Shown here piece by piece: positions 7,139 through 26,096 of a stretch of DNA of 41,749 nucleotides. Position 1 is the first letter of the stretch. The number at the start of each line of letters is the position of its first letter. Where the stretch lies: IMG/VR virus record IMGVR_UViG_3300038330_000020; one strand, 5' to 3'. The notes under the pieces are model-generated. The model was not told where the DNA came from, did not search any database, and saw only the letters and a list, made by a program, of their open reading frames with translations. The DNA comes from a virus. The position numbers and the translations under genes are program-made.

Positions 7139-7743
7139 TGGAAAACCAAAGCGACATAGACTTAGCCAACACCGCGCTTAACCTAGTGGGCTCCGATCGC
7201 ATCGTGTCGCTGGACAACACGGTCAACAGCAAGGTGGTTCAATCGGTCAATCAATTCTTATCACTGGCGAAACAGGAAACCTTGCGCGCGCGTGATTGGA
7301 ACCGCGCAAGAGGCCGGGCGACCCTGGCAGCACTGGACGCCAGCCTAAGCCTAGGCGAGTGGTCGCAAGCGTATCGCTTGCCGCCGGATTGTCTTTGTAT
7401 GCGCCGGTTTATCGGGACTTGTGACGCGGAGAGATTCGCCGCCTACAACGTGGAGATCGACGAGGACGACAAGCAGATCCTTTTCACCAACTGCGGCACG
7501 AACAAGATCGTTTACACGCGCAACATCGTCGACGTTAATCGATGGGACTCGCTGATGTTTCGCGCCGCGGTTCAACTACTGGCGTCTTATCTAGTCGGCC
7601 CGCTCATTCGTGACTTCAAAATGCAACAAATGAAAACCCTGGAATTTAAGGACGCCTTTGAAGAAGCGATAGGGACGAACGAGGGCGAGGGCGGGCCGGA
7701 TCAGGTTTACGACAGTACGCTAGTCAGTGTCAGGCATTGGTGA
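7138..7743 (+). CDS. putative tail tubular protein A / adaptor (T7 gp11 position)
   Basis: The ATG at 7138 overlaps the upstream TAA. It is about 200 aa and lies immediately upstream of the large gp12-like gene. N-terminal motif is DLANTALNLVGSDRIVSLD. Confidence 0.5.
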   Translation: MENQSDIDLANTALNLVGSDRIVSLDNTVNSKVVQSVNQFLSLAKQETLRARDWNRARGRATLAALDASLSLGEWSQAYRLPPDCLCMRRFIGTCDAERFAAYNVEIDEDDKQILFTNCGTNKIVYTRNIVDVNRWDSLMFRAAVQLLASYLVGPLIRDFKMQQMKTLEFKDAFEEAIGTNEGEGGPDQVYDSTLVSVRHW

Positions 7744-12290: not shown

Positions 12291-12647
12291 ATGGCTCGGG
12301 CAGTAGCCCACGAGCGCATCGCGTTTGCCCGTTCAGTTTGTTTGAACGGCGACCCGATCGGCGCGGGCGGGATTACCATGCACGACGACATCGGGGAAAC
12401 GTGGTCTTTGTTTTCCCCTACGGTGTTGCAATTTCCCAAAGCACTTTTCAAGGCGTGCAAGGCGGGCATCGCGGGCGCGGTGAAAGAGTTTAACCCGCAG
12501 GTGATTCTATCGTTCGTTCATAAGGACGATCTAGTCGCGCAGCGTTTTATTGAACGGCTCGGCTATAAGCAAAGCGAGCAACGTTTATACATTTACGGCG
12601 CAGACGGCGGCGATTGGTGGGCGTCGGCAGTAAAGAAGGAGAATTAA
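12291..12647 (+). CDS. hypothetical protein, possibly GNAT-fold (T7 gp13 position)
   Basis: The ATG at 12291 is preceded by GAGGA. The C-terminal ...AQRFIERLGYK resembles the GNAT C-terminal motif. The alternative start is the GTG at 12276. Confidence 0.35.
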   Translation: MARAVAHERIAFARSVCLNGDPIGAGGITMHDDIGETWSLFSPTVLQFPKALFKACKAGIAGAVKEFNPQVILSFVHKDDLVAQRFIERLGYKQSEQRLYIYGADGGDWWASAVKKEN

Positions 12648-12649
12648 GT

Positions 12650-13081
12650 ATGCCATGGGCACTTATAGCAATGGCGGCGATTAAGGCCGTCGGTTCGATC
12701 CTTCAAGGCGTAGGCGAAATGAAGGCGCACAAACAGAACGCGCTAAACGCCGAGGCCGAGGGCGAGCAGGCCGTGGCGACAAGCGGAGCAGAAGCAATGC
12801 GGATACGTCGCCAAGTAGCAGGCGAACAAGCCTCATTGATTGCGGGCGCAGGCGCGCAGGGCACGACCTTTGCCGGTTCGCCGATGGAAGTCTACACAGA
12901 GAACGCCTTGCAAGGTGAAACCATGGCGCAAGACCGAATCTACGGCGGGCGGCTAGTGAATCGCAGCAAGAGAATGGAGGCGCAAATGTCACGGCGTAAA
13001 GCATCCGGCGCGATGCTAGGCGGGATATTCGGCGCGCTTGGCGCCGGTGCGTCGGCATGGGCAGGAAGTAGCGGTAACTAA
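12650..13081 (+). CDS. putative internal virion protein (T7 gp14-like architecture)
   Basis: The ATG at 12650 follows AAGGAG. It has a hydrophobic N-terminus, an A/Q/G-rich helical core and a Gly/Ala-rich hydrophobic C-terminus. Confidence 0.45.
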   Translation: MPWALIAMAAIKAVGSILQGVGEMKAHKQNALNAEAEGEQAVATSGAEAMRIRRQVAGEQASLIAGAGAQGTTFAGSPMEVYTENALQGETMAQDRIYGGRLVNRSKRMEAQMSRRKASGAMLGGIFGALGAGASAWAGSSGN

Positions 13082-13082
13082 A

Positions 13083-13796
13083 ATGATTCAATCAATCTAC
13101 ACTCCCGACAACTACACCGGCAACGGCACGTTGGACACATTCGCGTTTACCTTTCGCATCCTTGTTAAGGGCGATCTTGTCGCCATGACCCGGGACACGA
13201 ACGACGTTGAAACGACGCTCGAACTCAACAGCGATTACACGATCAGTGACGCCGACGTGAACACCGCGGACGGCGGCGAGGTGGTGTTGACCGATCCTTT
13301 GCCGACAGGAACCAAAATCTTTTTAATCAGGCGCACGGCGCAGACGCAGCTTAACAACATTGAGGAAGGATCACCTTTCCCGGCGGCAGTAGTCACTAAG
13401 GAATTTGATCGACTGACAATGATGATTCAGGATTTGCAATACCAAATCCGCCAATCTTTGAAGTTTTCGCCGACGAGCGAGATCGAAGATTCAAACTTAC
13501 CTGAGCCCGAGGCCGGCGCGCTCTTACAGTGGAACAGCGACGAGGACGGATTGCAAAACGTCCTGGCTTCATCCCTCGGCCTCACTCACACGGTTATCAC
13601 GCAAGCGATCGCGGCGGGCGCATTTCAAGCCGTGGTTACTCACAACCTAGCCAGCGCAAGCGCGAAAGTAATCGGCTTTAGCGCGAATTGGGGCACTGGA
13701 TTCTCTATCAACTCACAGGATGCCGATACTATTACGCTTGACTTGACCGTGGAGGCGCCAACCGGCGCCGAGATCACGACAGAGGTAGCAATATAA
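13083..13796 (+). CDS. tail fibre adaptor protein with T7 gp17-type N-terminal (tail-attachment) domain
   Basis: N-terminal pattern YTGNGTLDTFAFTFRIL...DYTI...GGEVVLTDPLPTGTKIFLIRRT..Q...F.AAVVTKEFDRLTMMIQDLQ matches the conserved phage T7 tail-fibre N-terminal domain. At only 237 aa it is likely an adaptor rather than a full fibre. Confidence 0.7.
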   Translation: MIQSIYTPDNYTGNGTLDTFAFTFRILVKGDLVAMTRDTNDVETTLELNSDYTISDADVNTADGGEVVLTDPLPTGTKIFLIRRTAQTQLNNIEEGSPFPAAVVTKEFDRLTMMIQDLQYQIRQSLKFSPTSEIEDSNLPEPEAGALLQWNSDEDGLQNVLASSLGLTHTVITQAIAAGAFQAVVTHNLASASAKVIGFSANWGTGFSINSQDADTITLDLTVEAPTGAEITTEVAI

Positions 13797-16700
13797 TGAA
13801 AAAGCTTTTTCTATTATTTGCCTTTCTTTGGGGCTTTACCGGCCAAGCTTGGGGCGCCGCGGCTGAAACCACGGCATATTTAATCCGCACAGACTGCGCC
13901 ACGATCACGAACCCTAAAGACATGGCCGTTGCATGTCTGCAATCAACCACCGTGAGCGGACGCACAGCCGGCCATATTTACGTTTACCGCTCCGGCGTAT
14001 GGGTCGACGTGGACGGCGGGGGCGGGGGCTCAGGTACACCCGGCGGCTCCAATACGCAGGTTCAATACAACAATGCAGGCGTGTTTGGTGGTGACTCGGG
14101 ACTCACTTTCAACGCGACCAGCAACGTGCTAACCGCCACCGGCGGCTTTATCGGTCCCTTGACAGGGAATCTCGTTGGCAACGTGACGGGCACCGTTACA
14201 GGCAACGCAACCACCGCGACGGCATTATCGGCAAATCCCAATAACTGTTCACCGGGCCAAGCCCCACTTGGCATTACAGCAGCAGGCGCCGCTGAGTCAT
14301 GCTTTGACGTAGCGACACAAACCGAACTCGACGCGCACACGGCTGGCACCGGGACGACGGTGCACGGCGCGGCGTCAACGAACACGGCGAGTGCGATTGT
14401 TACCAGGGACGCAAGCGGCAACTTTTCGGCAGGCACTATCACCGCGGCGATCACCGGCGCCGTGACCGGGAACGTGGTGGGAAATGTAACGGGCAATGTT
14501 ACCGGCAACGTCAGCGGCACGGCTGGAAGTTTGGCGGCCAACGGAACCAACTGCGCAGCGGGCGAAGCAGCGGGCGGCGTGGATGCCAGCGGCAACGCCG
14601 AGGACTGTATCACCGTCGGCGGCGGCGGCGGCACTCCGGTTGTCTTGGATCTCGGCAACGACGCTTCCAGTGAATCAACCGACCTTGCCAAGATCACCAC
14701 GACGGGCGACACCAACTCTATTTTCAGCGAGCCAAACGCCAACGAGCTGCGCATAGCCGTAGGTAACAAATGGCCCGCAGCCAACACGGCAGACCTAGCG
14801 ACCGCGGCAACTGCGTTAAATGCCAACGGCGCGAACTGTAGCGCCGGACAATTCCCGCTTGGGGTAGACGCCAGCGGCGCGGCTGAGAGTTGCACGGCCT
14901 TGCCAACGACCATCGCAGGCACGGCCAACCAGATCACCGCTAGCGCGGCGACCGGCGCCGTTACACTGTCAATCCCGACTAGCCCGACTTTGCCAGGCAC
15001 TACCACCGGAACGTTCAGCGGCAACCTAACCGGCAATGTAACCGGCGACGTGACCGGCTCGGTAATCGGCAACGTAACCGGCACGGCTTCTTTTGCCGGG
15101 GCTCTCAGCGCCAACGGGACGAATTGTAGCGTAGGGCAGGCGGCGGCCGGTGTCGATGCTCAAGGCAACGCGGAGGACTGCAACACGGTCCTAGCAACCC
15201 CCGGCGGTTCAGACACCCACGTCCAGTTTAATGACGCTGGCACCCTCAACGGTGACGCAGGGCTTACTTACAACAAGACGACCGACGTATTGACCGCTAC
15301 TGGCGGCTTCGTTGGACCCTTGACGGGCACGGCATCACTCGCCACAGCCTTAGCGGCAAATCCGACCGATTGCGGCGCGAATGAATTTGCAATAGCGATT
15401 GCGGCCAACGGCAACCTTACCTGCACCACGCCAGCGGGCGGCGGCGACGTTACCGGGCCGGCATCGTCGGTTGACTCCGAAATCGCTTTGTTTAGTTCGA
15501 CCACCGGCAAGGTCATTAAGCGCGCTACGACTACCGGCGTATTGAAAGGCACCTCGGGTGTATTGAGCGCAGCGACAGCTGGCGTGGATTACGTCTTGCC
15601 GGCGGGCAATGTCGCCACGGCAACCGCTTTGGCGGCAAATCCCGACAACTGCGCGGCAGGGCAAGGGCCGCTCGGGATCAACGCCGCAGGGCAGGTTGAA
15701 GGTTGCACCGACTACGTAGAAGAACCGGCCAGCGCGGGCATCATAGCCAAGACCGCGGCCAACACCACGGCGGCGCGCAGTATCGCCAGCTCGGCGCCGA
15801 TCACGGTTACAAACGGCAACGGCGTGGCCGGGGATCCGGTTGTGGCTTGTACGACTTGCGGCGTGACGGGCAGTCCTCTTTCACAGTTTGCCGCGACGAC
15901 CTCGGCGCAATTAGCCGCCACGATCAGCAACGAAACCGGCTCGGGCGCGGTTGTGTTTGGCACCTCGCCAACCTTGACGACGCCGGTTATAGCCGACTAC
16001 ACCACCGCGCAGCACGCGCACACGGCGGCATCGAGCGGCGGCAAGCTATCGGCAAGCGCAGCATTGACCGCAACCGGCACGCCGTCGGCGTCGACCTTTT
16101 TACGCGGTGACAACGCCTGGGCGGCGCCTGTAGCCGGCGCGGGCGGCTCGACGACGCAAATGCAGTACAACAACGCCGGGGCGGTTGCCGGTGTGGCAGG
16201 TTGTACCAGTGACGGCACAAACCAGACATGCGGCACCGACACCCTAAGAGCCACTAACCCGCGCATCACGACCGGACTCCGCGACTCAAGCGGCAACCCT
16301 TGGGTTGCAGTCACGCCAACAGCCAGCGCCGTCAATGGAATCAATATCACCAACGCAGCTACGGGCGGCACGCCGCAAATATCGGCAGTAGGCAGTGATA
16401 CCAACGTCGGGCTTAACCTTTCCGGCCAGGGCACCGGGGCTATCTGTTTAGGTACGAGCTGCGCGACGAGCACGACGACAGTCGGTAGCGTCGAAGCCGG
16501 TTCGGCCAAGTTCAACGGCACGACCTCGGGAACCATCAGCATGTTACCGCAGGCCGCGGCGGGTACTTACAACTTCAATCTACCGACCACGGCAGGCAGC
16601 GCGGCGGACTGTCTCAAGTCAGGCGGCGGCGGCGCTTCGCCTATGACCTGGGGCGCATGCGGGGGTGGAGGCGGCGGCGGCGGTGACTTCGCTTCGATCA

Positions 16701-18292
16701 CCTCGGGCACCAATACCACCATGGCGGCGGTTATCGGCTCGGGCGCGACCCTCGATTACACCGGCTCGGGAACCATCAACGCGACCACAGTGAACGGCGG
16801 CGCGGTTGCGCCGATTGCGGTTAATAAGACGGTTGACCCGGCAACCAGCGATAACACGGCGGCGGGATACCCTAACGGCTCGGCTTGGATCAACACCACA
16901 GCCAGCCCTGACACGGTTTGGATAAAGACCGGCGAAACAACGGGAACCGCGGCATGGGCGCAGCACTCTTTAACCGGCCATGCTCACAGCGCGGCAGACG
17001 TGACTTCCGGCACCTTGCCATTGGCTCGAGGCGGCACAAATCAAACAAGCTGGACGGCTTCACGCTGCGTGCAAGTCAACGCGGGCGGGACGGCACTGGA
17101 AAGCGCCTCAGCGGCTTGCGGCACCGGCTCAGGCGGCGGCGGCACTTCCGGCCCAATGAACACAGCGACCTCGACCGGCACGGCGGGCGCTTCCGTTAGC
17201 AGCGCCGAAACGCAGGTTACGACTGTTTCGATTACACCCAACGCGACGACTTCCAAGGTGCTGATTCTTGCGCGCGTTGATTGGAGCAAAGATTCAGGGA
17301 CTACAGTCCGCACCGTAACGACCCGGGTCAGGCGCGGCACGACCAACGGCGACCCTCTTGTCAGTCAATCGAGCATTATCAATTCGATCAACGTGTCGAA
17401 CAGCCCGGCGTTAGGACCGGCGGTGATTTTGGCGATCGACTCGCCAAGCACGACCAGCGCGACCACGTACCGGCTATCCGGCCAGACCGGCGCGGGCAAT
17501 GAAACGGCGACAACCTTTGAGCTGCAAGCTGTCGAATTGACCGGCAGCGGCTTTGCGCCGGCAGACAAGACCTATTGGACCTCACAGGCGGAAACCGGAC
17601 TCAGCGCAGAAACGAACCTCGGCGCGCTTACCACCGGACTCCTAAAGCACACTGTTTCCGGCAGCGTCAGCACGCCAGCAACAGCCACAGCCGGAACTGA
17701 TTACAGCCATCCGTCGACAGCCGAAACCCGCACCAACATGACGATTGACGCCGAGGGCACCGGCAATGTCGTCACGATGCCGTTTACCCTGTTCTTACCC
17801 GCGGCAGGCGGCACAGCGGCGGCGCCGGCTTCTGTCTGGGATTTGCCGGCCGCCAACCCGGCGGTCGCAGTTGTCACGGCGGGCACAAATACACTTCAAG
17901 GTACTTTGGACTTCGCCGACGGCGCCGACACATTAAGCGCACAAACTAATTGGATGATTCCCTCGGATTGGGTGGGCACGGTTGACGCTAGAATCAAGTG
18001 GTTTACCTCGGCGACAACCGGCGACGTGGTCTGGCAACTGGCGACGATATGCGTAGCCGACGCCGAAACCAACGACCCGGCATTCAACACGGCAAGCACA
18101 GTGACCGACACCGCGAAGGGAACAACGAATCAACTTAACGACGCGGCCATCACGACCCTTACCGTTACCGGGTGCGCGGCGGGCGAGCTGATGCACTTGA
18201 AGGTGTCACGCGATCCGACCACCGGCGCGGATACCCTGGCGGCAACGGCGCGGCTAGTTGGAATCGAGCTGAAATACCGGAGAACCATGTAA
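13796..18292 (+). CDS. large tail fibre-like protein (1498 aa) with signal-peptide-like N-terminus
   Basis: Repeated VQYNNAG..G...LT.N modules, GNVTG runs, six Cys-pair repeats and poly-Gly hinges. TGLLK...AGTDY motifs are typical of podovirus fibres. N-terminus is MKKLFLLFAFLWGFTGQAWG/AAA. Confidence 0.8.
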   Translation: MKKLFLLFAFLWGFTGQAWGAAAETTAYLIRTDCATITNPKDMAVACLQSTTVSGRTAGHIYVYRSGVWVDVDGGGGGSGTPGGSNTQVQYNNAGVFGGDSGLTFNATSNVLTATGGFIGPLTGNLVGNVTGTVTGNATTATALSANPNNCSPGQAPLGITAAGAAESCFDVATQTELDAHTAGTGTTVHGAASTNTASAIVTRDASGNFSAGTITAAITGAVTGNVVGNVTGNVTGNVSGTAGSLAANGTNCAAGEAAGGVDASGNAEDCITVGGGGGTPVVLDLGNDASSESTDLAKITTTGDTNSIFSEPNANELRIAVGNKWPAANTADLATAATALNANGANCSAGQFPLGVDASGAAESCTALPTTIAGTANQITASAATGAVTLSIPTSPTLPGTTTGTFSGNLTGNVTGDVTGSVIGNVTGTASFAGALSANGTNCSVGQAAAGVDAQGNAEDCNTVLATPGGSDTHVQFNDAGTLNGDAGLTYNKTTDVLTATGGFVGPLTGTASLATALAANPTDCGANEFAIAIAANGNLTCTTPAGGGDVTGPASSVDSEIALFSSTTGKVIKRATTTGVLKGTSGVLSAATAGVDYVLPAGNVATATALAANPDNCAAGQGPLGINAAGQVEGCTDYVEEPASAGIIAKTAANTTAARSIASSAPITVTNGNGVAGDPVVACTTCGVTGSPLSQFAATTSAQLAATISNETGSGAVVFGTSPTLTTPVIADYTTAQHAHTAASSGGKLSASAALTATGTPSASTFLRGDNAWAAPVAGAGGSTTQMQYNNAGAVAGVAGCTSDGTNQTCGTDTLRATNPRITTGLRDSSGNPWVAVTPTASAVNGINITNAATGGTPQISAVGSDTNVGLNLSGQGTGAICLGTSCATSTTTVGSVEAGSAKFNGTTSGTISMLPQAAAGTYNFNLPTTAGSAADCLKSGGGGASPMTWGACGGGGGGGGDFASITSGTNTTMAAVIGSGATLDYTGSGTINATTVNGGAVAPIAVNKTVDPATSDNTAAGYPNGSAWINTTASPDTVWIKTGETTGTAAWAQHSLTGHAHSAADVTSGTLPLARGGTNQTSWTASRCVQVNAGGTALESASAACGTGSGGGGTSGPMNTATSTGTAGASVSSAETQVTTVSITPNATTSKVLILARVDWSKDSGTTVRTVTTRVRRGTTNGDPLVSQSSIINSINVSNSPALGPAVILAIDSPSTTSATTYRLSGQTGAGNETATTFELQAVELTGSGFAPADKTYWTSQAETGLSAETNLGALTTGLLKHTVSGSVSTPATATAGTDYSHPSTAETRTNMTIDAEGTGNVVTMPFTLFLPAAGGTAAAPASVWDLPAANPAVAVVTAGTNTLQGTLDFADGADTLSAQTNWMIPSDWVGTVDARIKWFTSATTGDVVWQLATICVADAETNDPAFNTASTVTDTAKGTTNQLNDAAITTLTVTGCAAGELMHLKVSRDPTTGADTLAATARLVGIELKYRRTM

Positions 18293-19548
18293 TGAGAAAA
18301 TTGCTACTCGCTTTATTCCTTGCCTTAGCATTCCCCGCGCAGGCATGGGCCGCGGCGATCGCGCACACCTTCGTAGAACAGAACTCAAGCCAGAGCACCA
18401 CAAGCGCGAGTTACGGTGACGTGACCGGCGCGACGATTACAAGCGGCAATTTCACCGCTGGCAAGAAGTACCTGATTTGGGTTACGGCGCATGTCAACCC
18501 GCCGGCCAACTCCTTAGTCGGTTATCAAGTAATTCACGGCTCGACGGCCTTTGCCGAATCGGAATTTCTAACCCGATCCGACGAGCAGAACGGGCGGGCC
18601 TATCTATGGTTCACCGTGTGGGAGGCGGTTTCCTCCGAGGGGATCACTTTCCAGATTAAGAGCGACGGCACGTTGACTAACGCCGTGGACCAAGTTGCTA
18701 TTTTCGCGATGAATCTGTCTGATGACTTGGTTGAAAACACCGACTGGTGCTTTAACGAGCGCTCCAATAATGACGCTCTTTCCACTTCGCCAGTCGGCGG
18801 CGGCGCCTGCACGATCACACCGGCGGGTGCATCAGATTGGCTTGTCGCTTCGTATGCACAGGTAGACCTAGCAAACGCCACAAACAACTTAATAACCGCG
18901 CTTGTCCGCTCCGGCGAGGCCAGCACTTCGCTACCGCAAGGCGTGTTTCTGGCGGCGACAGCAACCGACCAAGAATTGATGGCTTTGTCCCGCGTCTTTG
19001 CCTTGACCGGCGTATCAAACACATTCACCGAGCAATCATCCGCGGCGGCATCGGCTCATACCCGATTACACTCGGGGTTGTTCATGTTGAACTTGGATAA
19101 ATTTGCCGGGCATTCAAGCGCGTACACGGAAGCCGATGCAAATCTCGGCACGAGCGCATTCGGTAATCAACTGCAAACAATCGGAATAACCCCCGCGGCC
19201 ATTGGCGATGTTTGGGTGGGCGCCTATTGGGGCTTTGACCAAAACAACGCCAACCGCAACGCGCGCTTTCGCGTGCAGATTGACGGTGCTGACGTGCCGA
19301 CCGGACAAACGACGGACCTTCTTCTTTTCCGCACCTTTTCCGACCAGGGTGAAACACCTATGCACCTTAGTACCATGGTGACGAACATGACCGCGGCGGC
19401 GCACACGATAGACCTTGACGCAGCGGCGGACGCGACCACCGGCACGCCAGCGGCGCAGCAGGCAACTCTATGGGCGGTGACAATGGAGTTACCCGGCGGC
19501 GCGCCGCCACCACCCGCGGGCGGCGTCTTTCATAGGAGAATTCAATAA
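18292..19548 (+). CDS. hypothetical secreted or fibre-associated protein (two tandem beta-sandwich-like halves)
   Basis: The ATG at 18292 overlaps the upstream TAA by 1 nt. N-terminus is MRKLLLALFLALAFPAQAWA/AAI. 418 aa. Confidence 0.6.
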   Translation: MRKLLLALFLALAFPAQAWAAAIAHTFVEQNSSQSTTSASYGDVTGATITSGNFTAGKKYLIWVTAHVNPPANSLVGYQVIHGSTAFAESEFLTRSDEQNGRAYLWFTVWEAVSSEGITFQIKSDGTLTNAVDQVAIFAMNLSDDLVENTDWCFNERSNNDALSTSPVGGGACTITPAGASDWLVASYAQVDLANATNNLITALVRSGEASTSLPQGVFLAATATDQELMALSRVFALTGVSNTFTEQSSAAASAHTRLHSGLFMLNLDKFAGHSSAYTEADANLGTSAFGNQLQTIGITPAAIGDVWVGAYWGFDQNNANRNARFRVQIDGADVPTGQTTDLLLFRTFSDQGETPMHLSTMVTNMTAAAHTIDLDAAADATTGTPAAQQATLWAVTMELPGGAPPPPAGGVFHRRIQ

Positions 19549-21542
19549 TGCGACGGTTATTTTTTGTCCTTATCGCGTGGCTGTGTTTGGCAGGCTCGGC
19601 TTGGGCTTCGACGCTTTCAACAACCATTGCCGCGATGCCCGCCGATTCATGGGCGGTTATCTCGCCGTCCAATACCGGAGTAATCGGCGGCGGACTAACA
19701 ACCAGCTTCGGAGACTCCGGCGCCTGGGATCCGATCAATAGAAAGTTTCTATTTACCGGCGCAGATCACGGTGTCGGTTACGACTTCGTTATCTGGGACG
19801 ACGCCACAAACGCTTGGACGAGCGGCGCGGCTTTGCCGGGAGTACCTAAGAGTACGATCTTTGTCGGCCATGCCTTTGACGGCAACACGACCGACTATAA
19901 CGGCAATTACTTTTATAGATGCAGGCGCGGCACATGCGGGAACGATATTTATAAATACAATGTCACAACGGGCGCATGGACGACCCTGCCTAACAACACC
20001 GCAGAGACTAACGAGAACAACGATTGTTGCACCGGCATTGCCTACTTTCCCGAATTGGGCGGGCTTGTATGGATCACCAACACCGGACAGATTTGGCTTT
20101 GGAACGCGACGAGTAACACATGGTCACTTCTTACCACGGCGTCAGGATATAGCGCGGGAACGTGGGCGTTTGCCGAATACAATCCGATTCGCAAGGTAGT
20201 TTTATTCGGCAGCGGCGTTAGTAGTCAACTTTTCAGCCTCAGCGCAACGGGCGTGGTCACAGCCAAGGGCGCTATCCCGCATACCATTTATTCCGGCGAC
20301 GGCTTCAACGGCCATGTTACGCACGACCCGGTAACAGGACTCTTTATTGTACTCACCTCGGGTACGCATCAGTGCAAGACCTACGAAGTATCAACCGATA
20401 CATGGGGAACCTGCACCAATCCGCCGGCAGGCATGCAAAATATGTCCGTGGCTTCCGCCAGCGTCACGAATTACGGCGCAACGGTGTACTTCAACTGCGG
20501 CCAATTCACCGGCTCATGTACCGGCAATATGTATATCTACAAGCGCGCGTCTTTAACGGCGGACTCCGATTTCGCTACGCGCTGCGCAACGGCTGGGGTG
20601 ACGGCGTGTTGGGGATTCAATAACACCACCACCGATATTGTTACAACCGGAGCAAACCCAAATCTTTACGCAGGCGACACGACTACAGCTAGTCTCGACA
20701 CCGTCACTAAAGTATCGGGCGCCGGTTCTCTGCGGTTTAACCTACCCGCAGGAGCAAGCGGCGCGAACATAGCCGGGCAATGGACAAAATTAAACTCGCC
20801 TTACAACCTGCTCGGCGCATCTTTCGGCGGCGGGCAAACTTTCTATCTGCAATTCCAACAGCGATTCAATCCGGCGATGATGACCAACACGAGTTTTTGG
20901 AATTCGTCATGGAAGCAAGTGGCATTTTATCAAAACAACGTCGCGTGCGCAGCGATGGAATTGACCACGGTTCACAAGAATTTTAGCTCATTCCCGAACA
21001 ACTTTCCGGTTATGTACACGGATTGCGGCGACCCCGGCCAATTCAATCCGACCAACGGCGGGTTTATCTATCTGCAACAGGGCGCCGATCCGTTCCCAAC
21101 CGGCGCGGGCTACAACTGCCGGTTTGGTTTCATCAATGGGACAGAGTGTTTTATCTACCCAACCGACAAGTGGATCACGTTTTATTACAAGATCACCATC
21201 GGCACCTATAGCGCCGGGCCGAACGATTTTGTTGGCACGCAGGTCGACGCATGGGTTGCAATAGACGGCGGGCCTTATAAACAATGGCAAAACATCACCA
21301 TGAATCTTTCAGCCGGCGGCAACGGCGCGTCGGCAGTAATCAACAACATTACGTTTTTACCCTACATGACCTCGCTTTCGACCTCGGCGCCGCTCGACGC
21401 CTTCACGTGGATCGATGAGCTAATCGTTTCGACCTTGCCAATCTCGGCGCCGCAGGGAGCAGGCAGCGGCGGCGTAGACCCGCCAATACCCCCGGCACCG
21501 ACTAACCCGGTTAGTTTTAGAATTTCGCAGTTATCAAAATGA
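19548..21542 (+). CDS. Kelch-like beta-propeller protein with C-terminal ConA-like (polysaccharide-lyase/glucanase-like) jelly roll
   Basis: N-terminus is MRRLFFVLIAWLCLAGSAWA/STL. Blade motifs recur (NAWTSGAALPG, GAWTTLPN, NTWSLLTTASG, DTWGTCTNPP). The C-terminal pattern is SLRFNL...W..V.F...WITFYYKI...VDAWVAIDG...WIDELIV. Confidence 0.55.
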   Translation: MRRLFFVLIAWLCLAGSAWASTLSTTIAAMPADSWAVISPSNTGVIGGGLTTSFGDSGAWDPINRKFLFTGADHGVGYDFVIWDDATNAWTSGAALPGVPKSTIFVGHAFDGNTTDYNGNYFYRCRRGTCGNDIYKYNVTTGAWTTLPNNTAETNENNDCCTGIAYFPELGGLVWITNTGQIWLWNATSNTWSLLTTASGYSAGTWAFAEYNPIRKVVLFGSGVSSQLFSLSATGVVTAKGAIPHTIYSGDGFNGHVTHDPVTGLFIVLTSGTHQCKTYEVSTDTWGTCTNPPAGMQNMSVASASVTNYGATVYFNCGQFTGSCTGNMYIYKRASLTADSDFATRCATAGVTACWGFNNTTTDIVTTGANPNLYAGDTTTASLDTVTKVSGAGSLRFNLPAGASGANIAGQWTKLNSPYNLLGASFGGGQTFYLQFQQRFNPAMMTNTSFWNSSWKQVAFYQNNVACAAMELTTVHKNFSSFPNNFPVMYTDCGDPGQFNPTNGGFIYLQQGADPFPTGAGYNCRFGFINGTECFIYPTDKWITFYYKITIGTYSAGPNDFVGTQVDAWVAIDGGPYKQWQNITMNLSAGGNGASAVINNITFLPYMTSLSTSAPLDAFTWIDELIVSTLPISAPQGAGSGGVDPPIPPAPTNPVSFRISQLSK

Positions 21543-23467
21543 AAAATTTATTATTTTTGCTCGCGTTGCTCTTAGTCCCGGCTTGGGCCGAGGCAACGAC
21601 CTATTGGGCCTCAACCACAGGCAGCGGCGCGACCTGCGGCACCACCGGCACAAGTGACCCAGGCTCAGGATATACGACGCTCGTGAAAGGACTGACTTGT
21701 GTAAGCGCGGGCGACACGCTCCGACTAAAGGGCGGTATTTATTCCGACAACAACGGCGTGATGACCAACTCGGGCACCGACTTGGGCGCCGGCGCGATCA
21801 CGATCCGCAACGCGACGGGGGAAACCGTTAGATTTAGCGGCAATCATCCCATTGAATTTTATTCAGCAGCCACGCATCACGTCATTGTCGACGGCTCAGA
21901 TGGTAATAGCACGCCGTGCAGTATTGGCGACTGCACGACGCGCATCATTTACGACGGCACGCTCGGCGCAGGCGGCGTGGTAACTAACCTAGCGAGTTAC
22001 ATTCGCTGGAAAGGGGTGGAGATCAGAAACACCAGCGAGAACGGCTGGCAGCCTGGCACGGCTTTCCCGGCTACCACCGCGGCAACGGGGATGGAGTTAA
22101 TCAATAGCCGCGTGCATCACAACGGGACGGACTTAGGCGGCACGCCGCAACACCACGGAATATATAACAATGGCCGCGACGCGATTATCGACGGTAACGA
22201 TATTTATTCTAATTGCGGCGCGGGGGTGCACGCCTACACAGCAACCGCCGGTTATGAAACCATCAATCAGAACCTGATAGTCCGAAATAATCGGGTGCGT
22301 CTAAACGGCGTATGCAATTCATCGATCGGAATCCTTTTCACGGCAGGCAGCAATATAAGGGTTTATAACAACATCGTCCACGACAACAACGGCGACGGCA
22401 TCAGACCCTACAACACCTTCCCGCCTGACGGCGCGGTTATCTACAGTAATACGGTCTACCAGAACACCGGCACCGGCTTGTATTTGTTCCCAGGCCCGGC
22501 AGCAACGGGTACCGTTTGGCGAAATAACATCACTTTAAACAATACGCCGAACATAGATTTTTCAGCCGGCACTGTGACGCAGAGCAACAATCTATCCACC
22601 GGCGCGCCCACAAATATATTCACCGACCCGTTTGGATCGAACTTCACCTTAAAAACAGGCTCGGCGGCGATTGATGCGGGGTTTACTATCGGCACGCCTT
22701 ACAACGTGTCGATCGACGGCAGCGCGCGGCCTCAATCCCTCGGCGGTATTTACGACATAGGCGCATACGAAACCAGCACGAGCGCGCCGTCTTGCCCGGC
22801 AACCTCGCCCGCGCTTGTGGCTTCCTACACGTTTGCGACTAACGGCGCAGACGGAACAGGCAACGGGCATACCGCCGTCCCTGGTAGCGGGTGGACCTTT
22901 GCCGGCGGGGGCATAACGTCCAACGGTACGAGCGGCATCACAGTTCCAGACCATGACGCGCTCGACCCTTGCGGCAGTTTTACCTACATGGTGTCGGCCA
23001 GCCTACCGGATACTACCGGCCCTTATGTCCTTATCGTTAAAAATCCCGACTCTACAGCATTTCTGTTTGCATCGATTGATGGATACTGCGGCACCGGGCG
23101 ACCGATGGGAGGTTACAGCACGACCACGACAGCCGCGGTTGCCTGTTACGCGACATCGTTGACAACGGGGTCATTCCAACACCTTGCGGTGACTTACGAT
23201 TCGACTCTGATGAGCGCCAACGTCAAGTTGTACCTCAACGGCGCGTTAGTCGCGTCGACTACCGGCACGGCGCTTCTTAGCCCTACCACAGGCACGTTGC
23301 AGTTTTGTGAGTCAGGCTTTGGTGAGATTTGCCCAAGCGGTACGGTATTAAAGAACGTGAAAATTTACAACTACGCGCGCACAGCGGCGGAGATCGTGAC
23401 TGACATGGGCATGGGCCGCACCGTCAAGATCGCCGCAGGGCAAACGCTCAAGATTGGCTTGCAATGA
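21539..23467 (+). CDS. right-handed parallel beta-helix protein (pectate-lyase-fold, depolymerase-like) with C-terminal LamG domain
   Basis: N-terminus is MKNLLFLLALLLVPAWA/EAT. PbH1-type repeats are present (IDGNDIYSN, VRNNRVRLNG, VYNNIVHDNNGDGI, IYSNTVYQNTGTGL, WRNNITLNN). The C-terminal pattern HLAVTYDS...VKLYLNGALV...VKIYNYARTAAEI is LamG-like. Confidence 0.7.
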   Translation: MKNLLFLLALLLVPAWAEATTYWASTTGSGATCGTTGTSDPGSGYTTLVKGLTCVSAGDTLRLKGGIYSDNNGVMTNSGTDLGAGAITIRNATGETVRFSGNHPIEFYSAATHHVIVDGSDGNSTPCSIGDCTTRIIYDGTLGAGGVVTNLASYIRWKGVEIRNTSENGWQPGTAFPATTAATGMELINSRVHHNGTDLGGTPQHHGIYNNGRDAIIDGNDIYSNCGAGVHAYTATAGYETINQNLIVRNNRVRLNGVCNSSIGILFTAGSNIRVYNNIVHDNNGDGIRPYNTFPPDGAVIYSNTVYQNTGTGLYLFPGPAATGTVWRNNITLNNTPNIDFSAGTVTQSNNLSTGAPTNIFTDPFGSNFTLKTGSAAIDAGFTIGTPYNVSIDGSARPQSLGGIYDIGAYETSTSAPSCPATSPALVASYTFATNGADGTGNGHTAVPGSGWTFAGGGITSNGTSGITVPDHDALDPCGSFTYMVSASLPDTTGPYVLIVKNPDSTAFLFASIDGYCGTGRPMGGYSTTTTAAVACYATSLTTGSFQHLAVTYDSTLMSANVKLYLNGALVASTTGTALLSPTTGTLQFCESGFGEICPSGTVLKNVKIYNYARTAAEIVTDMGMGRTVKIAAGQTLKIGLQ

Positions 23468-23760
23468 CGACGCTGATTTTATTGATCGCCTTGACGTTCA
23501 CCTGGGTCGACACGTCCGACAACGAGGAAGGATTCGTTATCGAGAAATCAATCGGCAACTGCAACGGGTTTGAACCCTACAGCTTTCACGGTGCCGGCAT
23601 ACAGAAAGTTGTGGACACCGCCGTCGGCGTGCCGGGCGACTGTTACCGGGTGGGCGCGTTCAACGATAGCGGCATAGCGTACAGCAACACGGCGCAGATA
23701 GCGCAACCCCCGCCACCACCGCCATGCGTTATCAAGGGAAAGAGTAAAAAGTGTCACTAA
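23464..23760 (+). CDS. small fibronectin-type-III-like protein with poly-Pro / Cys C-terminal tail
   Basis: LTFTWVDTSDNEEGFVIEKS...CYRVGAFNDSGIAYSN is the bacterial FN3 signature. ATGA coupling to the upstream gene. Confidence 0.55.
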   Translation: MTTLILLIALTFTWVDTSDNEEGFVIEKSIGNCNGFEPYSFHGAGIQKVVDTAVGVPGDCYRVGAFNDSGIAYSNTAQIAQPPPPPPCVIKGKSKKCH

Positions 23761-23773
23761 GGAAAGAATCACG

Positions 23774-24061
23774 GTGAGGGTCGACTATGCACCGATGAAC
23801 GAGGCCACGTCTATTTTTGTCGCCAGCGTTATCATAGCGCTGATAGCCTGGGCGATTAAGTTGTTGCTGAAAGTAAGCGAGAAATTGACTGAAATTGTTC
23901 AATGGAGAGTGGGACACGAATCACAGCACGAGGCAGAAAAAGAAGTCAACACCGAGCGGCACAACTCGAATTATAGGGCGCTTATCGAAATTCGCCGAGA
24001 GATACATAACGCGGTTTTCAGATGGAAAGGCCCGCGGCGCGAAGATGACGAAGGAGATTAA
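23774..24061 (+). CDS. small membrane protein (one N-terminal TM helix, charged C-terminus), lysis-cassette candidate
   Basis: The TM segment SIFVASVIIALIAWAIKLLL is followed by a charged helical tail. Confidence 0.45.
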   Translation: MRVDYAPMNEATSIFVASVIIALIAWAIKLLLKVSEKLTEIVQWRVGHESQHEAEKEVNTERHNSNYRALIEIRREIHNAVFRWKGPRREDDEGD

Positions 24062-24073
24062 GGAGGTAAGTAA

Positions 24074-24220
24074 ATGCTAACCGTATTTTTAATCCTGGCT
24101 TTGACCGCTTTTATCGTGACGATTGCGAGCGCGGTCAGTCCGCCGCGGGTGCCGCTCTGGGTGGCGGTACTGATTCTAACCGTGATCGAATTGCTGCGGG
24201 CCTTGCCGTTGGGACGATGA
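24074..24220 (+). CDS. small membrane protein (48 aa, two TM helices), holin-like candidate
   Basis: AGGAGG sits 7 nt upstream of the ATG at 24074. The stop overlaps the next ATG (ATGA). Below the ORF-track cutoff. Confidence 0.45.
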   Translation: MLTVFLILALTAFIVTIASAVSPPRVPLWVAVLILTVIELLRALPLGR

Positions 24221-24411
24221 GCCACAATGATTTTTTACAGGCCTTTCTTAAATTTATCGCGTCCTCGATTGCGGCATTCGGAAGCGGGTGGGCAACCGCA
24301 GTGTTAAGCGACGTGACACACGAGAAAGCGATCGCAAGCGGCGTAGTTGCCTTTTGCGCCTATGTACTCGGGAATCAACAGTCGCCGCTTAGAAAGCCAC
24401 CCAATGATTGA
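24217..24411 (+). CDS. small membrane protein (64 aa, two TM helices), holin-like candidate
   Basis: Hydrophobic segments FIASSIAAFGSGWATAVL and GVVAFCAYVLG. Translationally coupled. Confidence 0.45.
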   Translation: MSHNDFLQAFLKFIASSIAAFGSGWATAVLSDVTHEKAIASGVVAFCAYVLGNQQSPLRKPPND

Positions 24412-24620: not shown

Positions 24621-26096
24621 ATGCCCGACCTTCCGAGAATACTTGCACGACCCGACCTGCCAACCGTCAACTTGCCGCGCACCAATGCCGACGCTTACGG
24701 GGCTCAGGCGTTCGGCGCATTACAGAAGGCCGCGGGCCAGTGGGAAGTTGCGCTGCGCGAGAAGCAGGCGCCCGTTGACGCCGCTTTGCAATCAAGTAAC
24801 TACGACGTGGCGATGGAGGATTTGAAAAATGAGATTCAAGCCGACCCCGACCCGACGAACTGGCGGACAAATTTTCTTGCCAGGGAACAGGAGAAGCGCG
24901 CTGAAATCTCGGGAGGCTTAACCGATCCGCGTATCAAACGCGCTCTTGACCTGCACGCCAACAGAGCTTTAAGCCGCAACATCATCGAGCTGAGCGACAA
25001 AGCGCGAGTGGCAAGCAAAGCCAAGATGCTCACAGACATCGATATTGTCGGCGACACCTTAGCGGCACAGGCGGCGAATACTCCCGACGAGAACATACAA
25101 CGCCAAGCGCGGAACACTTTCAACGCACTAATAACTAGCGCGGAACAGCCGGTTAAAATTGGTGACAAGACCGTGCCGGGCCTTGACCCCAAGAGCGCGG
25201 AGCAGTTACGCCAGAACTTTGAGAAAAAATATATTACCAACGTCGCGCAAGGCGAAATCCACCGCGATCCTTCCAAGTTTTTGCGCGACCTAAACGGCTC
25301 GACCAAATACGACACCTTAGACAAGATGGCGCTTACCCGTACGGCTAATGCCGCCATATCAACGGCAATGACAATTCAAGGCAAGGAACAGAAGCAGAAA
25401 GAGGAAGCCGCCGACAGAGAGATCCAAGACTTGTTCGACATACGCGCAACCCCCGACATTATCCAGAAACGTCTAGTGGAAATGAGCGCCGCGGGTGTCA
25501 TGGACCGCACGCAACGGAACTTCTGGGATACTAAATTAATACGCGGCGAGAAGGGCGACGACGGGCCGCAGGTTGCCAACACTGAAAAACTCGTTGCTGA
25601 TTTCTTAGCTATACCACCGACCGGCGCTCGTATCAGGGACTTTCGAGCGCAGACTAATCATATGAGAAACACCGGCGCCATCGGCGACAAGGGCTCGTCA
25701 AAGATGAACGCAATGTTAATTCAAGCGGAGAAGCAACTACGGGCAGAAGGGCGAGCAGAAGAATCGGCAGCGCGAGCGAGAGCAGGCGGCAGCGGCAAAG
25801 AAAAGGACATTTCAACGGCAGAAGGCTTGCGCGCCATTGCCTCTAATTTTTCAGTAGGGAGCCCCACCCAACCTATATTACCCGGCCACAAGGAGGACGT
25901 GGCGACCTTTGCGCGACGTATTCTTGACGGCACCAGGAAGGCTGACACAGTGAAAGAACTTGTTACTAACCGAGAAAAGAAAAACAAAGAAGCGCAACAA
26001 CTACAACAGGCACGAGACGCCGCAGCGAAAGCCGATCCTAAAATCGCGGCAATAATTGAGACCGTTAAGGCACTCGAAAAAGCCGGAAAGAAATAA
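24621..26096 (+). CDS. putative internal virion (core/ejection) protein
   Basis: 491 aa, helical and charged, directly upstream of and coupled (TAATG) to the 1390-aa protein. This is the gp15/gp16-like pairing. Confidence 0.45.
   Translation: MPDLPRILARPDLPTVNLPRTNADAYGAQAFGALQKAAGQWEVALREKQAPVDAALQSSNYDVAMEDLKNEIQADPDPTNWRTNFLAREQEKRAEISGGLTDPRIKRALDLHANRALSRNIIELSDKARVASKAKMLTDIDIVGDTLAAQAANTPDENIQRQARNTFNALITSAEQPVKIGDKTVPGLDPKSAEQLRQNFEKKYITNVAQGEIHRDPSKFLRDLNGSTKYDTLDKMALTRTANAAISTAMTIQGKEQKQKEEAADREIQDLFDIRATPDIIQKRLVEMSAAGVMDRTQRNFWDTKLIRGEKGDDGPQVANTEKLVADFLAIPPTGARIRDFRAQTNHMRNTGAIGDKGSSKMNAMLIQAEKQLRAEGRAEESAARARAGGSGKEKDISTAEGLRAIASNFSVGSPTQPILPGHKEDVATFARRILDGTRKADTVKELVTNREKKNKEAQQLQQARDAAAKADPKIAAIIETVKALEKAGKK

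What the first reader, a model, noticed from the sequence alone, without database searches (positions are those of the whole stretch)
13796..23760. Four consecutive tail-fibre-locus proteins carry canonical Sec signal peptides ending in a shared A-W-A/G motif
A short adaptor with a T7 gp17-type N-terminal domain (13083..13796) is followed by five genes chained by overlapping stop and start codons (TAATG, TAATG, TAATG, ATGA, ATGA). Four of them begin with a textbook n-h-c signal: MKKLFLLFAFLWGFTGQAWG/AAA (1498-aa fibre), MRKLLLALFLALAFPAQAWA/AAI (418 aa), MRRLFFVLIAWLCLAGSAWA/STL (Kelch propeller plus ConA-like jelly roll) and MKNLLFLLALLLVPAWA/EAT (beta-helix plus LamG). Tails of tailed phages assemble in the cytoplasm, so genuine export signals on receptor-binding proteins would be unexpected. 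I see three possible explanations. (a) The conserved hydrophobic N-terminus is a docking peptide for the adaptor or nozzle that only mimics a signal peptide, giving a multi-RBP branching system. (b) The proteins really are exported, forming a phage-encoded set of secreted glycan-binding or depolymerase proteins at the fibre locus. (c) They are membrane-tethered assembly intermediates. Any of these would be unusual.
Basis: partly seen in the sequence, partly recalled or inferred. Interest (0 to 1): 0.85.

Follow-up and report, generated by a model that had tools for sequence, protein, structure and literature searches.

The report
Phage tail-fibre proteins with export signals
An uncultivated T7-like phage, and several related phage lineages, put classic secretion signals and paired cysteines on the proteins of the tail-fibre gene cluster, so these proteins are probably exported and folded outside the cytoplasm where the rest of the virus is built, which is not how tailed phages are thought to make their fibres.

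Summary
Genes B (13796-18292), C (18292-19548), D (19548-21542) and E (21539-23467) follow a 237-aa gp17-type adaptor. They are chained by TAATG/ATGA overlaps, and each starts with an n-h-c leader ending A-W-A/G.

The leaders behave as real, cleaved Sec signals, not docking peptides:
- In the B family, 103 of the top 120 homologues have such a leader. It varies in sequence and length, and conservation starts just after the predicted cut.
- In the aligned C-family set, 38 members start 'M-AAIAH' and 34 carry a 17-25 aa leader ending AXA directly before the same 'AAIAH'.
- Mature cysteine counts are even in 22 of 22 leader-bearing proteins from eight phages (p = 2e-7). In the C family they are even in 32/34 with a leader against 18/38 without (p = 2e-5).
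- B has 13 sequential cysteine pairs.
- D and E are relatives of bacterial secreted proteins.

The same pattern (leaderless adaptor and cysteine-free internal proteins, leader-bearing cysteine-rich distal proteins) recurs in at least three phage lineages. I found no cultured relative and no report of this in the literature searched.

My best reading is that the proteins are exported and folded oxidatively, and that fibre B joins the adaptor after membrane disruption. Whether B-E are in the virion is unproven. Free secreted glycan-binding proteins are the main rival.

The parts
13083..13796 (+). Short tail-fibre adaptor (237 aa, 0 Cys, no leader). It has a gp17-type tail-attachment domain (residues ~10-130) plus a ~105-aa C-terminal part.
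   Evidence: PHROG 1640 and 15 other tail-fibre PHROGs match, but only over residues 10-127. A profile of the adaptor matches the N-terminal domain of the solved tailspike Dpo31/Dpo36 (E 5e-11). The protein in the same position in L025 hits Pfam Phage_T7_tail. Orthologues at 49-65% identity occur in L011, L013 and L015.
13796..13855 (+). Leader of B (20 codons, MKKLFLLFAFLWGFTGQAWG). The predicted SPase I cut lies after G20, give or take 3 residues.
   Evidence: B-family leaders vary in sequence and in length (18-42 aa before the conserved domain), and conservation starts after the cut.
13796..18292 (+). B: a 1498-aa fibre. It consists of the leader, a conserved ~45-aa N-domain (Y-L-I-R-x-D-C...V-C-L-Q-x-T-T, one Cys pair), Gly-rich linkers, repeated modules each closed by a Cys pair 17-18 residues apart, and a conserved C-terminal jelly roll (17633-18289).
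   Evidence: It has 26 Cys in 13 sequential pairs. There are 273 homologues; of the top 120, 103 carry a leader, and 94 of those have an even Cys count. Modules are shared with leaderless tail fibres of Limnohabitans phage YIMV22061 and Synechococcus phage S-LBS1. The C-terminal domain model (pLDDT 82.8) is a CBM-like beta sandwich, but the fold matches are weak.
18292..19548 (+). C: a 418-aa protein. Leader (codons 1-20), then a single-chain pseudo-trimer of three C1q/TNF-like jelly rolls.
   Evidence: AF2 model with pLDDT 94.8. Best Foldseek matches are single-chain C1q head 5hzf, Cbln1 C1q trimer, single-chain adiponectin and single-chain APRIL-BAFF (TM 0.54-0.61), and uncultured Caudovirales proteins (TM 0.71). 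The family occurs both with and without a leader, joined at the same residue.
19548..21542 (+). D: a 664-aa protein. Leader (codons 1-20), a Kelch-type propeller, and a conserved C-terminal domain of unknown fold. The mature part has 14 Cys.
   Evidence: Homologues are mostly bacterial proteins that have their own leaders and the same mature start S-[TV]-L-S. Two homologues sit in other phages (L002, L057), and both have leaders.
21539..23467 (+). E: a 642-aa protein. Leader (codons 1-17), a right-handed beta helix with a choice-of-anchor-Q segment, and a LamG domain. It has 12 Cys.
   Evidence: Pfam Beta_helix and Laminin_G_3; NCBIfam choice_anch_Q. There are 2132 homologues, and 123 of the top 149 carry a leader. 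A few leaderless ones start M-A-T-Y-Y at the mature N-terminus. Leader-bearing orthologues sit in L009, L013, L024 and L056.
23464..23760 (+). F: a 98-aa FN3-like protein with 4 Cys and a Pro-rich tail, translationally coupled to E. It is not a signal-peptide protein.
   Evidence: Sequence read directly: no basic n-region and no AXA site, and the FN3 strand-B motif LTFTWVDTSDNEEGFVIEKS is present. No family hit. Its role is unknown.
23774..24411 (+). Three small membrane-protein ORFs (95, 48 and 64 aa) directly after the cluster. They are candidate holin or lysis proteins. Their place in the proposed mechanism is inference only.
   Evidence: Hydrophobic segments read directly from the sequence. 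No family hits. No endolysin or lipobox spanin was recognised in the window.

Best explanation
The four leaders are genuine, cleavable Sec (signal peptidase I) signal peptides. The phage splits its tail fibre into two parts.

The tail-proximal adaptor (13083-13796) has no leader and no cysteine, and is mounted on the tail in the cytoplasm. The distal proteins are fibre B, the C1q-like pseudo-trimer C, the Kelch protein D and the beta-helix/LamG protein E. These are translocated unfolded into the periplasm of a host that probably has two membranes. There the leader is cut off and many local disulfide bonds form.

Fibre B carries a conserved 45-residue domain at its mature N-terminus. I propose that it docks onto the adaptor only once the inner membrane is breached at lysis, or afterwards in the lysate. 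C, D and E either ride on B or act beside it as soluble proteins that bind or cut glycans.

Shown by comparison: the leaders are modular export signals, and the mature parts carry the signature of disulfide-bonded extracytoplasmic proteins. Inferred: the periplasmic location, attachment of B to the adaptor, and the timing of joining.
For: 1. All four have the textbook n-h-c form, with short h-regions (10-13 residues) and small residues at -3/-1. No other real gene of the window has this.

2. C family. The aligned set (A5, 72 sequences) has 38 members that begin M|AAIAH and 34 with a 17-25 aa leader ending AXA directly before the same AAIAH. Mature Cys counts are even in 32/34 with a leader against 18/38 without (Fisher p = 2e-5).

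3. In eight phages (window, L002, L009, L011, L013, L015, L024, L025), 22 of 22 leader-bearing proteins have an even mature Cys count (binomial p = 2.4e-7), with Cys at 1.94%. The other proteins of seven of these phages have 0.73% Cys and 27/49 even. The large internal virion proteins have no Cys at all.

4. B has 13 sequential Cys pairs, mostly 17-18 residues apart. Of the top 120 B homologues, 103 have a leader and 94 of those have an even Cys count (p = 3e-19). Full-length leaderless fibres in the same list have almost no Cys.

5. B-family leaders differ in sequence and length, and the conserved N-domain begins 0-8 residues after the predicted cut.

6. D and E are homologous over their whole length to bacterial secreted proteins that have their own leaders.

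7. For B as a virion fibre:
- It shares modules with annotated tail fibres. One is an Autographiviridae fibre in which the gp17 N-domain and the shared module are in one leaderless chain.
- A B-type gene is present in every relative with this adaptor. It lies either right after the adaptor (window, L011, L013, L025) or after the gp15/gp16-like genes, which is the T7 gp17 position (L015).
- Its N-domain is conserved while the number of internal modules varies.

8. The same split (leaderless short adaptor-like protein, leader-bearing distal cluster) recurs in SU10-adaptor-type phages L009, L024 and L063.
Against: - There is no direct evidence that any of B-E is in the virion.
- C, D and E have no recognisable phage anchor domain. 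Their mature N-termini are those of the bacterial or leaderless homologues.
- Leader-bearing and leaderless members sit side by side in single phages (L054, L057). That fits free proteins as well as it fits late joining.
- B's C-terminal domain, not only its N-domain, is conserved. This is unusual for a receptor-binding tip.
- No holin, endolysin or spanin could be assigned by homology.
- The host is unknown.
- Even cysteine counts could also arise from disulfides that form after release.
- Signal-peptide predictors could not be run.
- Joining fibres to particles only at lysis would have to be efficient despite dilution.
Confidence: 0.5

Rival explanations
1. The proteins are exported as above but never become part of the virion. 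They would be phage-encoded secreted glycan-binding or glycan-cutting proteins made late in infection. Possible roles are stripping or masking the host's surface polysaccharide receptor to help release, stopping progeny from sticking to debris, or excluding other phages. The short adaptor alone, or another tail protein such as the 447-aa product of 10622-11965, would be the real receptor binder.
For: - C, D and E lack any phage anchor domain and look like bacterial secreted proteins.
- Leader-bearing and leaderless family members coexist in one phage.
- Leader-bearing members also occur away from any gp17-type adaptor, for example in the siphovirus-like L002 and L055.
- Phages of Porphyromonas gingivalis are reported to carry genes of unknown function with host-type signal peptides (PMC10367356).
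- From general knowledge: lambda Lom/Bor, T5 Llp and phi80 Cor are exported proteins encoded next to receptor-binding genes.
Against: - B has the modular build of a tail fibre and shares modules with true fibres.
- B is a core gene that travels with the adaptor and is translationally coupled to it.
- Its N-terminal 45 residues are conserved across divergent bodies, as expected for a docking domain.
- Without B, several of these phages (L011, for example) would have no distal fibre at all.
- A 1498-aa fibre is a costly decoy.
Confidence: 0.3
2. The leaders are not cleaved. They would hold the proteins in the inner membrane as signal-anchored intermediates facing the periplasm, to be released or picked up at lysis.
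For: Hydrophobic N-termini can act as anchors if signal peptidase does not cut them. Tethering would keep the proteins concentrated near the site of lysis.
Against: - The h-regions are 10-13 residues, too short for a stable membrane span.
- All are followed by strong AXA sites.
- Leaderless C orthologues start exactly at the +1 residue, which argues that the mature protein begins there.
- The AF2 model shows the leader as a detached, lower-confidence helix.
Confidence: 0.07
3. The hydrophobic N-termini are not export signals. They would be cytoplasmic docking peptides for the adaptor or nozzle that merely resemble signal peptides. Alternatively they are artefacts of wrongly chosen start codons.
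For: Known multi-spike podoviruses attach their spikes through short conserved N-terminal segments (general knowledge). All four proteins share A-W-A/G.
Against: - The leaders are not conserved in sequence or length among orthologues, and half of the aligned C-family set lacks them altogether.
- Even cysteine counts track the presence of a leader.
- Bacterial, non-phage homologues of D and E carry the same kind of leader.
- The starts are fixed by stop-start overlaps and Shine-Dalgarno-like sequences. No downstream start preserves the conserved mature N-terminus.
Confidence: 0.04

Closest known systems
T7 gp17 fibre and the adaptor-plus-tailspike systems of SP6/K1-5-like and Klebsiella KP32-like podoviruses
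   Same: There is a tail-attachment domain of the gp17 type. It sits on a short separate adaptor, which is followed by several receptor-binding or depolymerase-like genes. The gene order is T7-like: portal, capsid, tail tubular A and B, internal proteins.
   Different: In the known systems all fibre and spike proteins lack signal peptides and are assembled in the cytoplasm (general knowledge; Benler 2018, PMC6199706, treats absence of signal peptides as a mark of phage tail-fibre proteins). Here every distal protein has a Sec-type leader and paired cysteines, and C-E have no anchor domain.
g3p of filamentous phages (Ff/M13)
   Same: It is a phage receptor-binding protein made as a preprotein with a cleavable Sec-dependent signal sequence, and it is disulfide-bonded in the periplasm (PMC8310372, listed; otherwise general knowledge).
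   Different: Ff virions are assembled at and extruded through the envelope without lysis, and g3p has a C-terminal membrane anchor. Here the virus is a tailed, capsid-packaging podovirus, and B-E have no C-terminal hydrophobic segment.
Exported accessory proteins encoded beside receptor-binding genes (lambda Lom and Bor, T5 Llp, phi80/N15 Cor), and the Q-rule signal-peptide genes of Porphyromonas gingivalis phages
   Same: These are phage genes with host-type signal peptides that lie in or next to the tail-fibre region. They show that phages use the host's Sec pathway (PMC10367356; the named examples are from general knowledge).
   Different: Those are small outer-membrane proteins or lipoproteins, often expressed from the prophage. 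Here the proteins are 418-1498 aa, have a fibre, lectin or enzyme build, have no lipobox, and are translationally coupled inside the late structural operon.
Bacterial secreted beta-helix/LamG ('choice-of-anchor') and Kelch-propeller proteins
   Same: D and E are full-length homologues, leader included.
   Different: The bacterial versions often carry extra FN3/Big domains and sit in chromosomes. Here they are in a phage tail-fibre cluster. No C-terminal sorting domain (T9SS, PEP-CTERM) was found.

Membership tests
Sec-type (signal peptidase I) signal peptide | Basic n-region, uncharged hydrophobic h-region of about 7-15 residues, and a c-region with small residues at -3 and -1 | tested here: met
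   All four pass a rule-based test. The h-regions are 13, 11, 13 and 10 residues, and the sites are AWG|A, AWA|A, AWA|S and AWA|E.
Sec-type (signal peptidase I) signal peptide | Not a lipoprotein (SPase II) signal and not a Tat signal | tested here: met
   None has a Cys at +1 or a lipobox, and a lipobox scan of the window found nothing. D has RR-L-F-F, but its n-region is 3 residues, its h-region is strongly hydrophobic, and its mature part has many cysteines. That fits Sec, not Tat. This is inference from sequence only.
Sec-type (signal peptidase I) signal peptide | The leader is dispensable for the mature fold and is removed at the predicted site | tested here: met
   This is indirect, comparative evidence. 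38 leaderless C orthologues start M|AAIAH at exactly the +1 residue of 34 leader-bearing ones. Leaderless E relatives start M-A-T-Y-Y.
Sec-type (signal peptidase I) signal peptide | Actual translocation and cleavage in the host; a score from a trained predictor | not testable with these tools
   No SignalP or DeepTMHMM was available, there is no host, and no experiments were possible.
T7 gp17-type tail fibre (tail-attachment N-domain) | An N-terminal domain of about 130-150 residues that binds the tail, homologous to gp17 residues 1-149 | tested here: met
   Met for the adaptor 13083-13796 only: PHROG 1640 (E 2e-29) and others over residues 10-127, and the solved Dpo31 anchor domain (E 5e-11). 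Pfam PF03906 itself did not hit the window's adaptor at E < 0.01, but it hits the protein in the same position in L025.
T7 gp17-type tail fibre (tail-attachment N-domain) | Attachment domain and distal fibre in one polypeptide made in the cytoplasm | tested here: not met
   The adaptor stops at 237 aa. B-E have no such domain and carry leaders.
Branched multi-RBP podovirus systems (SP6/K1-5, KP32-like) | Each spike carries a conserved N-terminal docking segment for the adaptor or for another spike | tested here: inconclusive
   B has a conserved mature N-domain. It is also present in L024 and L063, which lack a gp17-type adaptor. C, D and E show no shared N-terminal segment after the leader.
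Exported moron or superinfection-exclusion proteins at the fibre locus (Lom, Bor, Llp, Cor) | A small outer-membrane protein or lipoprotein with its own expression signals | tested here: not met
   The sizes are 418-1498 aa, there is no lipobox, and the genes are joined by stop-start overlaps within the structural operon. Promoters were not examined.
Type IX secretion cargo or other C-terminally sorted surface proteins | A recognisable C-terminal sorting domain (T9SS CTD, PEP-CTERM and similar) | tested here: not met
   No NCBIfam sorting-domain hit for B-F. B's conserved C-terminal domain models as a CBM-like beta sandwich containing a Cys pair.
C1q/TNF-like jelly-roll receptor-binding heads | A trimeric arrangement of ten-stranded jelly rolls | tested here: met
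   For C: the model has pLDDT 94.8. The best PDB matches are engineered single-chain C1q, adiponectin and APRIL-BAFF trimers and the Cbln1 trimer (E 2e-13 to 5e-9, TM 0.54-0.61). This is fold-level only, at 7-8% identity.

The most novel reading that the evidence does not exclude
Virion assembly of a tailed phage is split between two compartments. Capsid, tail and a short adaptor are built in the cytoplasm. The distal fibre and accessory receptor-binding proteins are exported by Sec, disulfide-bonded in the periplasm, and joined to the adaptor only when the inner membrane is breached at lysis. This route would be used by several lineages of uncultivated phages (many with Bacteroidota-like A-X-A|Q cleavage sites). 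It would explain why their fibres are split into a leaderless anchor and leader-bearing distal parts.
Probability: 0.45. Interest if true: 0.9.

Novelty: new variant of a known kind. Interest (0 to 1): 0.8.

Why it matters
Tail fibres and spikes of tailed phages are taken to be cytoplasmic proteins. The absence of signal peptides has even been used as an argument that a protein belongs to a phage (PMC6199706).

Suppose a whole group of environmental phages exports its receptor-binding proteins. Then:
- The last step of virion assembly can take place outside the cytoplasm.
- Such fibres may need the host's Sec and disulfide-forming machinery, which gives new host factors and new routes to resistance.
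- Expressing these proteins for host-range engineering or as depolymerase enzymes would need periplasmic or oxidising conditions.
- Annotation pipelines that use a signal peptide to call a gene 'bacterial' or 'moron' would misfile phage receptor-binding genes.

The pairing of a leader with an even cysteine count gives a simple rule that can be tested across viromes.

Tried and rejected
- Close relatives in IMG/VR, searched with single proteins: the adaptor gave one distant prophage with a full-length spike (L001). D gave nothing.
- Host identification: a genome-contig scan with the adaptor alignment found nothing. A nine-sequence B alignment was too divergent to search. A three-sequence B alignment only picked up the generic fibre motif 'GGSDTxVQFN' in MAGs of many phyla: CPR, Planctomycetota, Acidobacteria and Proteobacteria. 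Cluster look-up gave no organism names of use. Sample accession numbers are not in the paper library.
- Cultured relatives: tblastn of B, its N-domain and E against 50,697 phage records gave only short module hits or none.
- Sorting or defence roles: no T9SS or PEP-CTERM domain, and no PADLOC hit.
- D and E have no sequence relative in the PDB.
- Gene conversion among the four leaders is rejected.
- A pilin-type leader or a lipobox in the window: none.
- Eight literature searches found no report of Sec signal peptides on fibres of tailed phages. The eCIS papers that mention 'N-terminal signal peptide' refer to cargo-loading tags.
- The idea that presence of a leader is all-or-none per genome is rejected by L054 and L057.

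Full report
**What is in the window**

The 41.7-kb window is a complete-looking podovirus genome with a T7-like structural module:
- portal (676-2331), major capsid protein (4074-4946), a methyltransferase and a glycosyltransferase
- tail tubular A (7114-7743) and B (7905-10670)
- an internal virion protein (12614-13081)
- two large cysteine-free proteins after the cluster (24621-26096 and 26096-30268)
- a repressor-like gene on the minus strand, an exonuclease and a replication initiator

The tail tubular B protein is at most 31% identical to that of any phage in GenBank. The same phage was assembled from several samples.

**The observation**

The finding is as described.
- The product of 13083-13796 (237 aa) matches sixteen tail-fibre or tailspike PHROGs, but only over its residues 10-127. 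It also matches the N-terminal anchor domain of a solved tailspike (E 5e-11).
- It is followed by B (1498 aa), C (418), D (664), E (642) and F (98). These are joined by TAATG, TAATG, TAATG, ATGA and ATGA overlaps, with Shine-Dalgarno-like sequences before B, C and D.
- B-E each begin with one or two basic residues, then 10-13 uncharged hydrophobic residues, then A-W-A or A-W-G.
- By a rule-based test these are the only real genes of the window with such an N-terminus.
- F has neither a basic n-region nor a cleavage site, and it looks like an FN3 domain.
- No downstream in-frame start would keep the conserved mature N-termini.
- The four leader DNAs are not recent copies of one another.

**Are the leaders real export signals?**

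Three independent comparisons say yes.

*First, the B family.* There are 273 homologues, mostly on contigs of phage size.
- 103 of the top 120 have a leader of the same physical type. The leaders have unrelated sequences and lengths.
- A conserved 45-residue domain (Y-L-V-R-x-D-C ... V-C-L-Q-x-T-T-x-x-G-R-T-A-G-H) begins 0-8 residues after the predicted cut.
- That is how cleaved signals evolve. It is not how docking peptides evolve.

*Second, the C family offers a natural experiment* (133 homologues).
- In an alignment of 72 members, 38 start M-A-A-I-A-H.
- The other 34 have a 17-25 residue leader ending in an A-X-A site directly before the same A-A-I-A-H.
- So the leader is a detachable add-on whose predicted cut recreates the N-terminus of the leaderless form.

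*Third, cysteines.*
- In eight phages, all 22 leader-bearing proteins have an even number of cysteines in the mature part (p = 2.4e-7), at 1.94% Cys.
- The other proteins of seven of those phages have 0.73% Cys and no parity bias (27 of 49 even). The big internal proteins have none.
- B's 26 cysteines form 13 sequential pairs, mostly 17-18 residues apart.
- Among B homologues, 94 of 103 with a leader are even. The nine exceptions each have a cysteine inside the leader. Full-length leaderless fibres in the same list have almost no cysteine.
- Within the C family, 32 of 34 leader-bearing members are even, against 18 of 38 leaderless ones (p = 2e-5).
- Paired cysteines that appear together with a leader are the signature of proteins that form disulfide bonds outside the cytoplasm.

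*D and E.* Both are full-length relatives of bacterial secreted proteins that carry their own leaders and the same mature start. One apparently leaderless D homologue was a mis-called start that hides the leader MILLAILFWVFSVSMADA|STLS.

**How general is it?**

The same layout recurs.
- In relatives with the same adaptor (49-65% identity; L011/L016, L013, L014/15/17), and in L025 with a more divergent adaptor in the same position, a B-type fibre with a leader follows the adaptor. In L015 it follows the gp15/gp16-like genes instead, which is the T7 gp17 position. It is usually accompanied by further leader-bearing proteins: LamG, Kelch and chondroitinase-B-like.
- Phages of another type (SU10-adaptor family; L009, L024, L063) show it too. 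A small leaderless fibre-like protein and cysteine-free internal proteins come first, then three or four leader-bearing, cysteine-rich proteins, then lysis genes.
- A more distant phage has a 221-aa adaptor followed by a 605-aa protein with a lipoprotein signal (L022).
- Presence of a leader is not all-or-none per genome. In L054 and L057 a leader-bearing beta-helix or Kelch protein sits next to a leaderless C homologue.

**What the proteins are**

- **B** shares modules with annotated, leaderless tail fibres. One is an Autographiviridae fibre in which the gp17 N-domain and the shared module lie in one chain. Another is a Synechococcus phage tail fibre. Its conserved C-terminal 200 residues model as a carbohydrate-binding-module-like beta sandwich, but the fold matches are weak.
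- **C** models with high confidence (pLDDT 94.8) as three C1q/TNF-like jelly rolls in one chain. Its best matches are engineered single-chain C1q, adiponectin and APRIL-BAFF trimers.
- **D** is a Kelch-type propeller plus a conserved domain of unknown fold.
- **E** is a right-handed beta helix plus LamG.
- None of them has a recognised C-terminal sorting domain or a defence-system match.

**How it most likely works**

I take export and leader removal as well supported (about 0.85-0.9).

For B, four things point to a virion fibre whose proximal anchor has been split off as a separate, leaderless, cysteine-free protein: its fibre build, its status as a core gene that travels with the adaptor, its translational coupling to the adaptor, and its conserved mature N-domain.

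The simplest way to reconcile an exported fibre with a cytoplasmic particle is that the two meet when the inner membrane is breached at lysis, or in the lysate. It is established knowledge that fibreless T4 and T7 particles can be completed in vitro, and that holin lesions are large enough to pass capsids. Whether that happens here is inference.

C, D and E have no anchor domain. They may bind to B or act as free proteins.

The main rival is that none of B-E is virion-bound and that they are late secreted glycan-binding or glycan-cutting proteins. The tools here could not separate these two readings. Membrane tethering and a docking-peptide mimic are unlikely, for the reasons given above.

**Comparison with what is known**

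The nearest systems are:
- the adaptor-plus-spike podoviruses, which have the same anchor domain and locus logic but no leaders
- g3p of filamentous phages, a receptor-binding protein with a Sec signal but an entirely different assembly route
- small exported proteins encoded beside receptor-binding genes
- the signal-peptide genes of unknown function reported in Porphyromonas gingivalis phages

One study explicitly treats the lack of signal peptides as typical of phage tail-fibre targets. Eight full-text searches found no report of Sec signals on fibres of tailed phages. The library lacks most subscription journals, so prior mention cannot be excluded.

**Limits**

- No trained signal-peptide predictor was available, the host is unknown, and there are no proteomic data.
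- Cleavage sites were set by eye or by a simple rule.
- Cysteine parity is indirect evidence.
- Metagenomic gene starts can be wrong, as the P0002 case shows.
- The homologue sets are related sequences, so the counts are not fully independent.

**Verdict**

The feature is real and conserved, and it is almost certainly functional as an export signal. It is unexpected for tailed-phage receptor-binding proteins. The assembly consequence is open and directly testable.

Noticed in passing
window 23464-23760 (F); C-termini of C, D and E; L054 715-972; L002 9667-9957: F looks like an FN3 domain that starts at strand B (LTFTWVDTSDNEEGFVIEKS). C, D, E and the bacterial D homologues end in a Pro-rich stretch followed by a short strand (PPxP..L.[IV]Q) that resembles FN3 strand A. 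Small fn3-like ORFs also accompany the cluster in two other phages. Strand donation between them is conceivable.
   Followed up: no
L011 14677-15141 (the related phage of IMGVR_UViG_3300037424_000710): A 154-aa protein with a prepilin-type N-methylation motif (GFTLIELMVV; Pfam N_methyl) lies a few genes after the leader-bearing fibre. No such motif occurs in the window.
   Followed up: partly
L022 9971-12496: In a distant phage, a 221-aa gp17-type adaptor is followed by a 605-aa protein with a lipoprotein signal (…FTLVGC|GS). This suggests that lipid-anchored variants of the same theme exist.
   Followed up: no
window 6039-7138; L011 2382-2930; L025 3662-4240: A methyltransferase sits between the capsid and tail genes and is conserved at that place in relatives. 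The window also has a glycosyltransferase there. A methyltransferase also sits next to the D homologue in L002.
   Followed up: no
window 23774-24411: Three small membrane-protein ORFs (95, 48 and 64 aa) follow the cluster directly and look like a holin-type cassette. No endolysin or lipobox spanin could be recognised anywhere in the window.
   Followed up: partly
window 10622-11965: The 447-aa protein after the nozzle is cysteine-rich (10 Cys, including CC doublets) but has no leader. It is an exception to the rule that cysteine-rich means leader-bearing. A 324-aa counterpart sits in L011.
   Followed up: no
B-family homologues P0020-P0139: 68 of 103 leader-bearing B homologues have an A-X-A site followed by Gln, as in the Bacteroidota 'Q-rule'. 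The window's four proteins do not (+1 = A, A, S, E). The trait may therefore span several host phyla.
   Followed up: partly
L057 1-130 (contig SRR6056504_1251426): The database protein P0002 starts at an internal Met. The ORF extends upstream to a start that overlaps the previous stop and adds a hydrophobic leader. Gene callers can hide these leaders.
   Followed up: yes
window 30897-31382 (minus strand): A repressor-like gene (PHROG 8, 4 and 3037) lies opposite the replication genes, which hints at a temperate lifestyle. No integrase was recognised.
   Followed up: no
L055 4138-5810 (siphovirus-like contig, JGI 3300011439): Two leader-bearing proteins (303 and 254 aa) lie directly after the Dit gene, where a tail-tip protein is expected. 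Exported proteins inside tail modules are therefore not confined to podoviruses.
   Followed up: no
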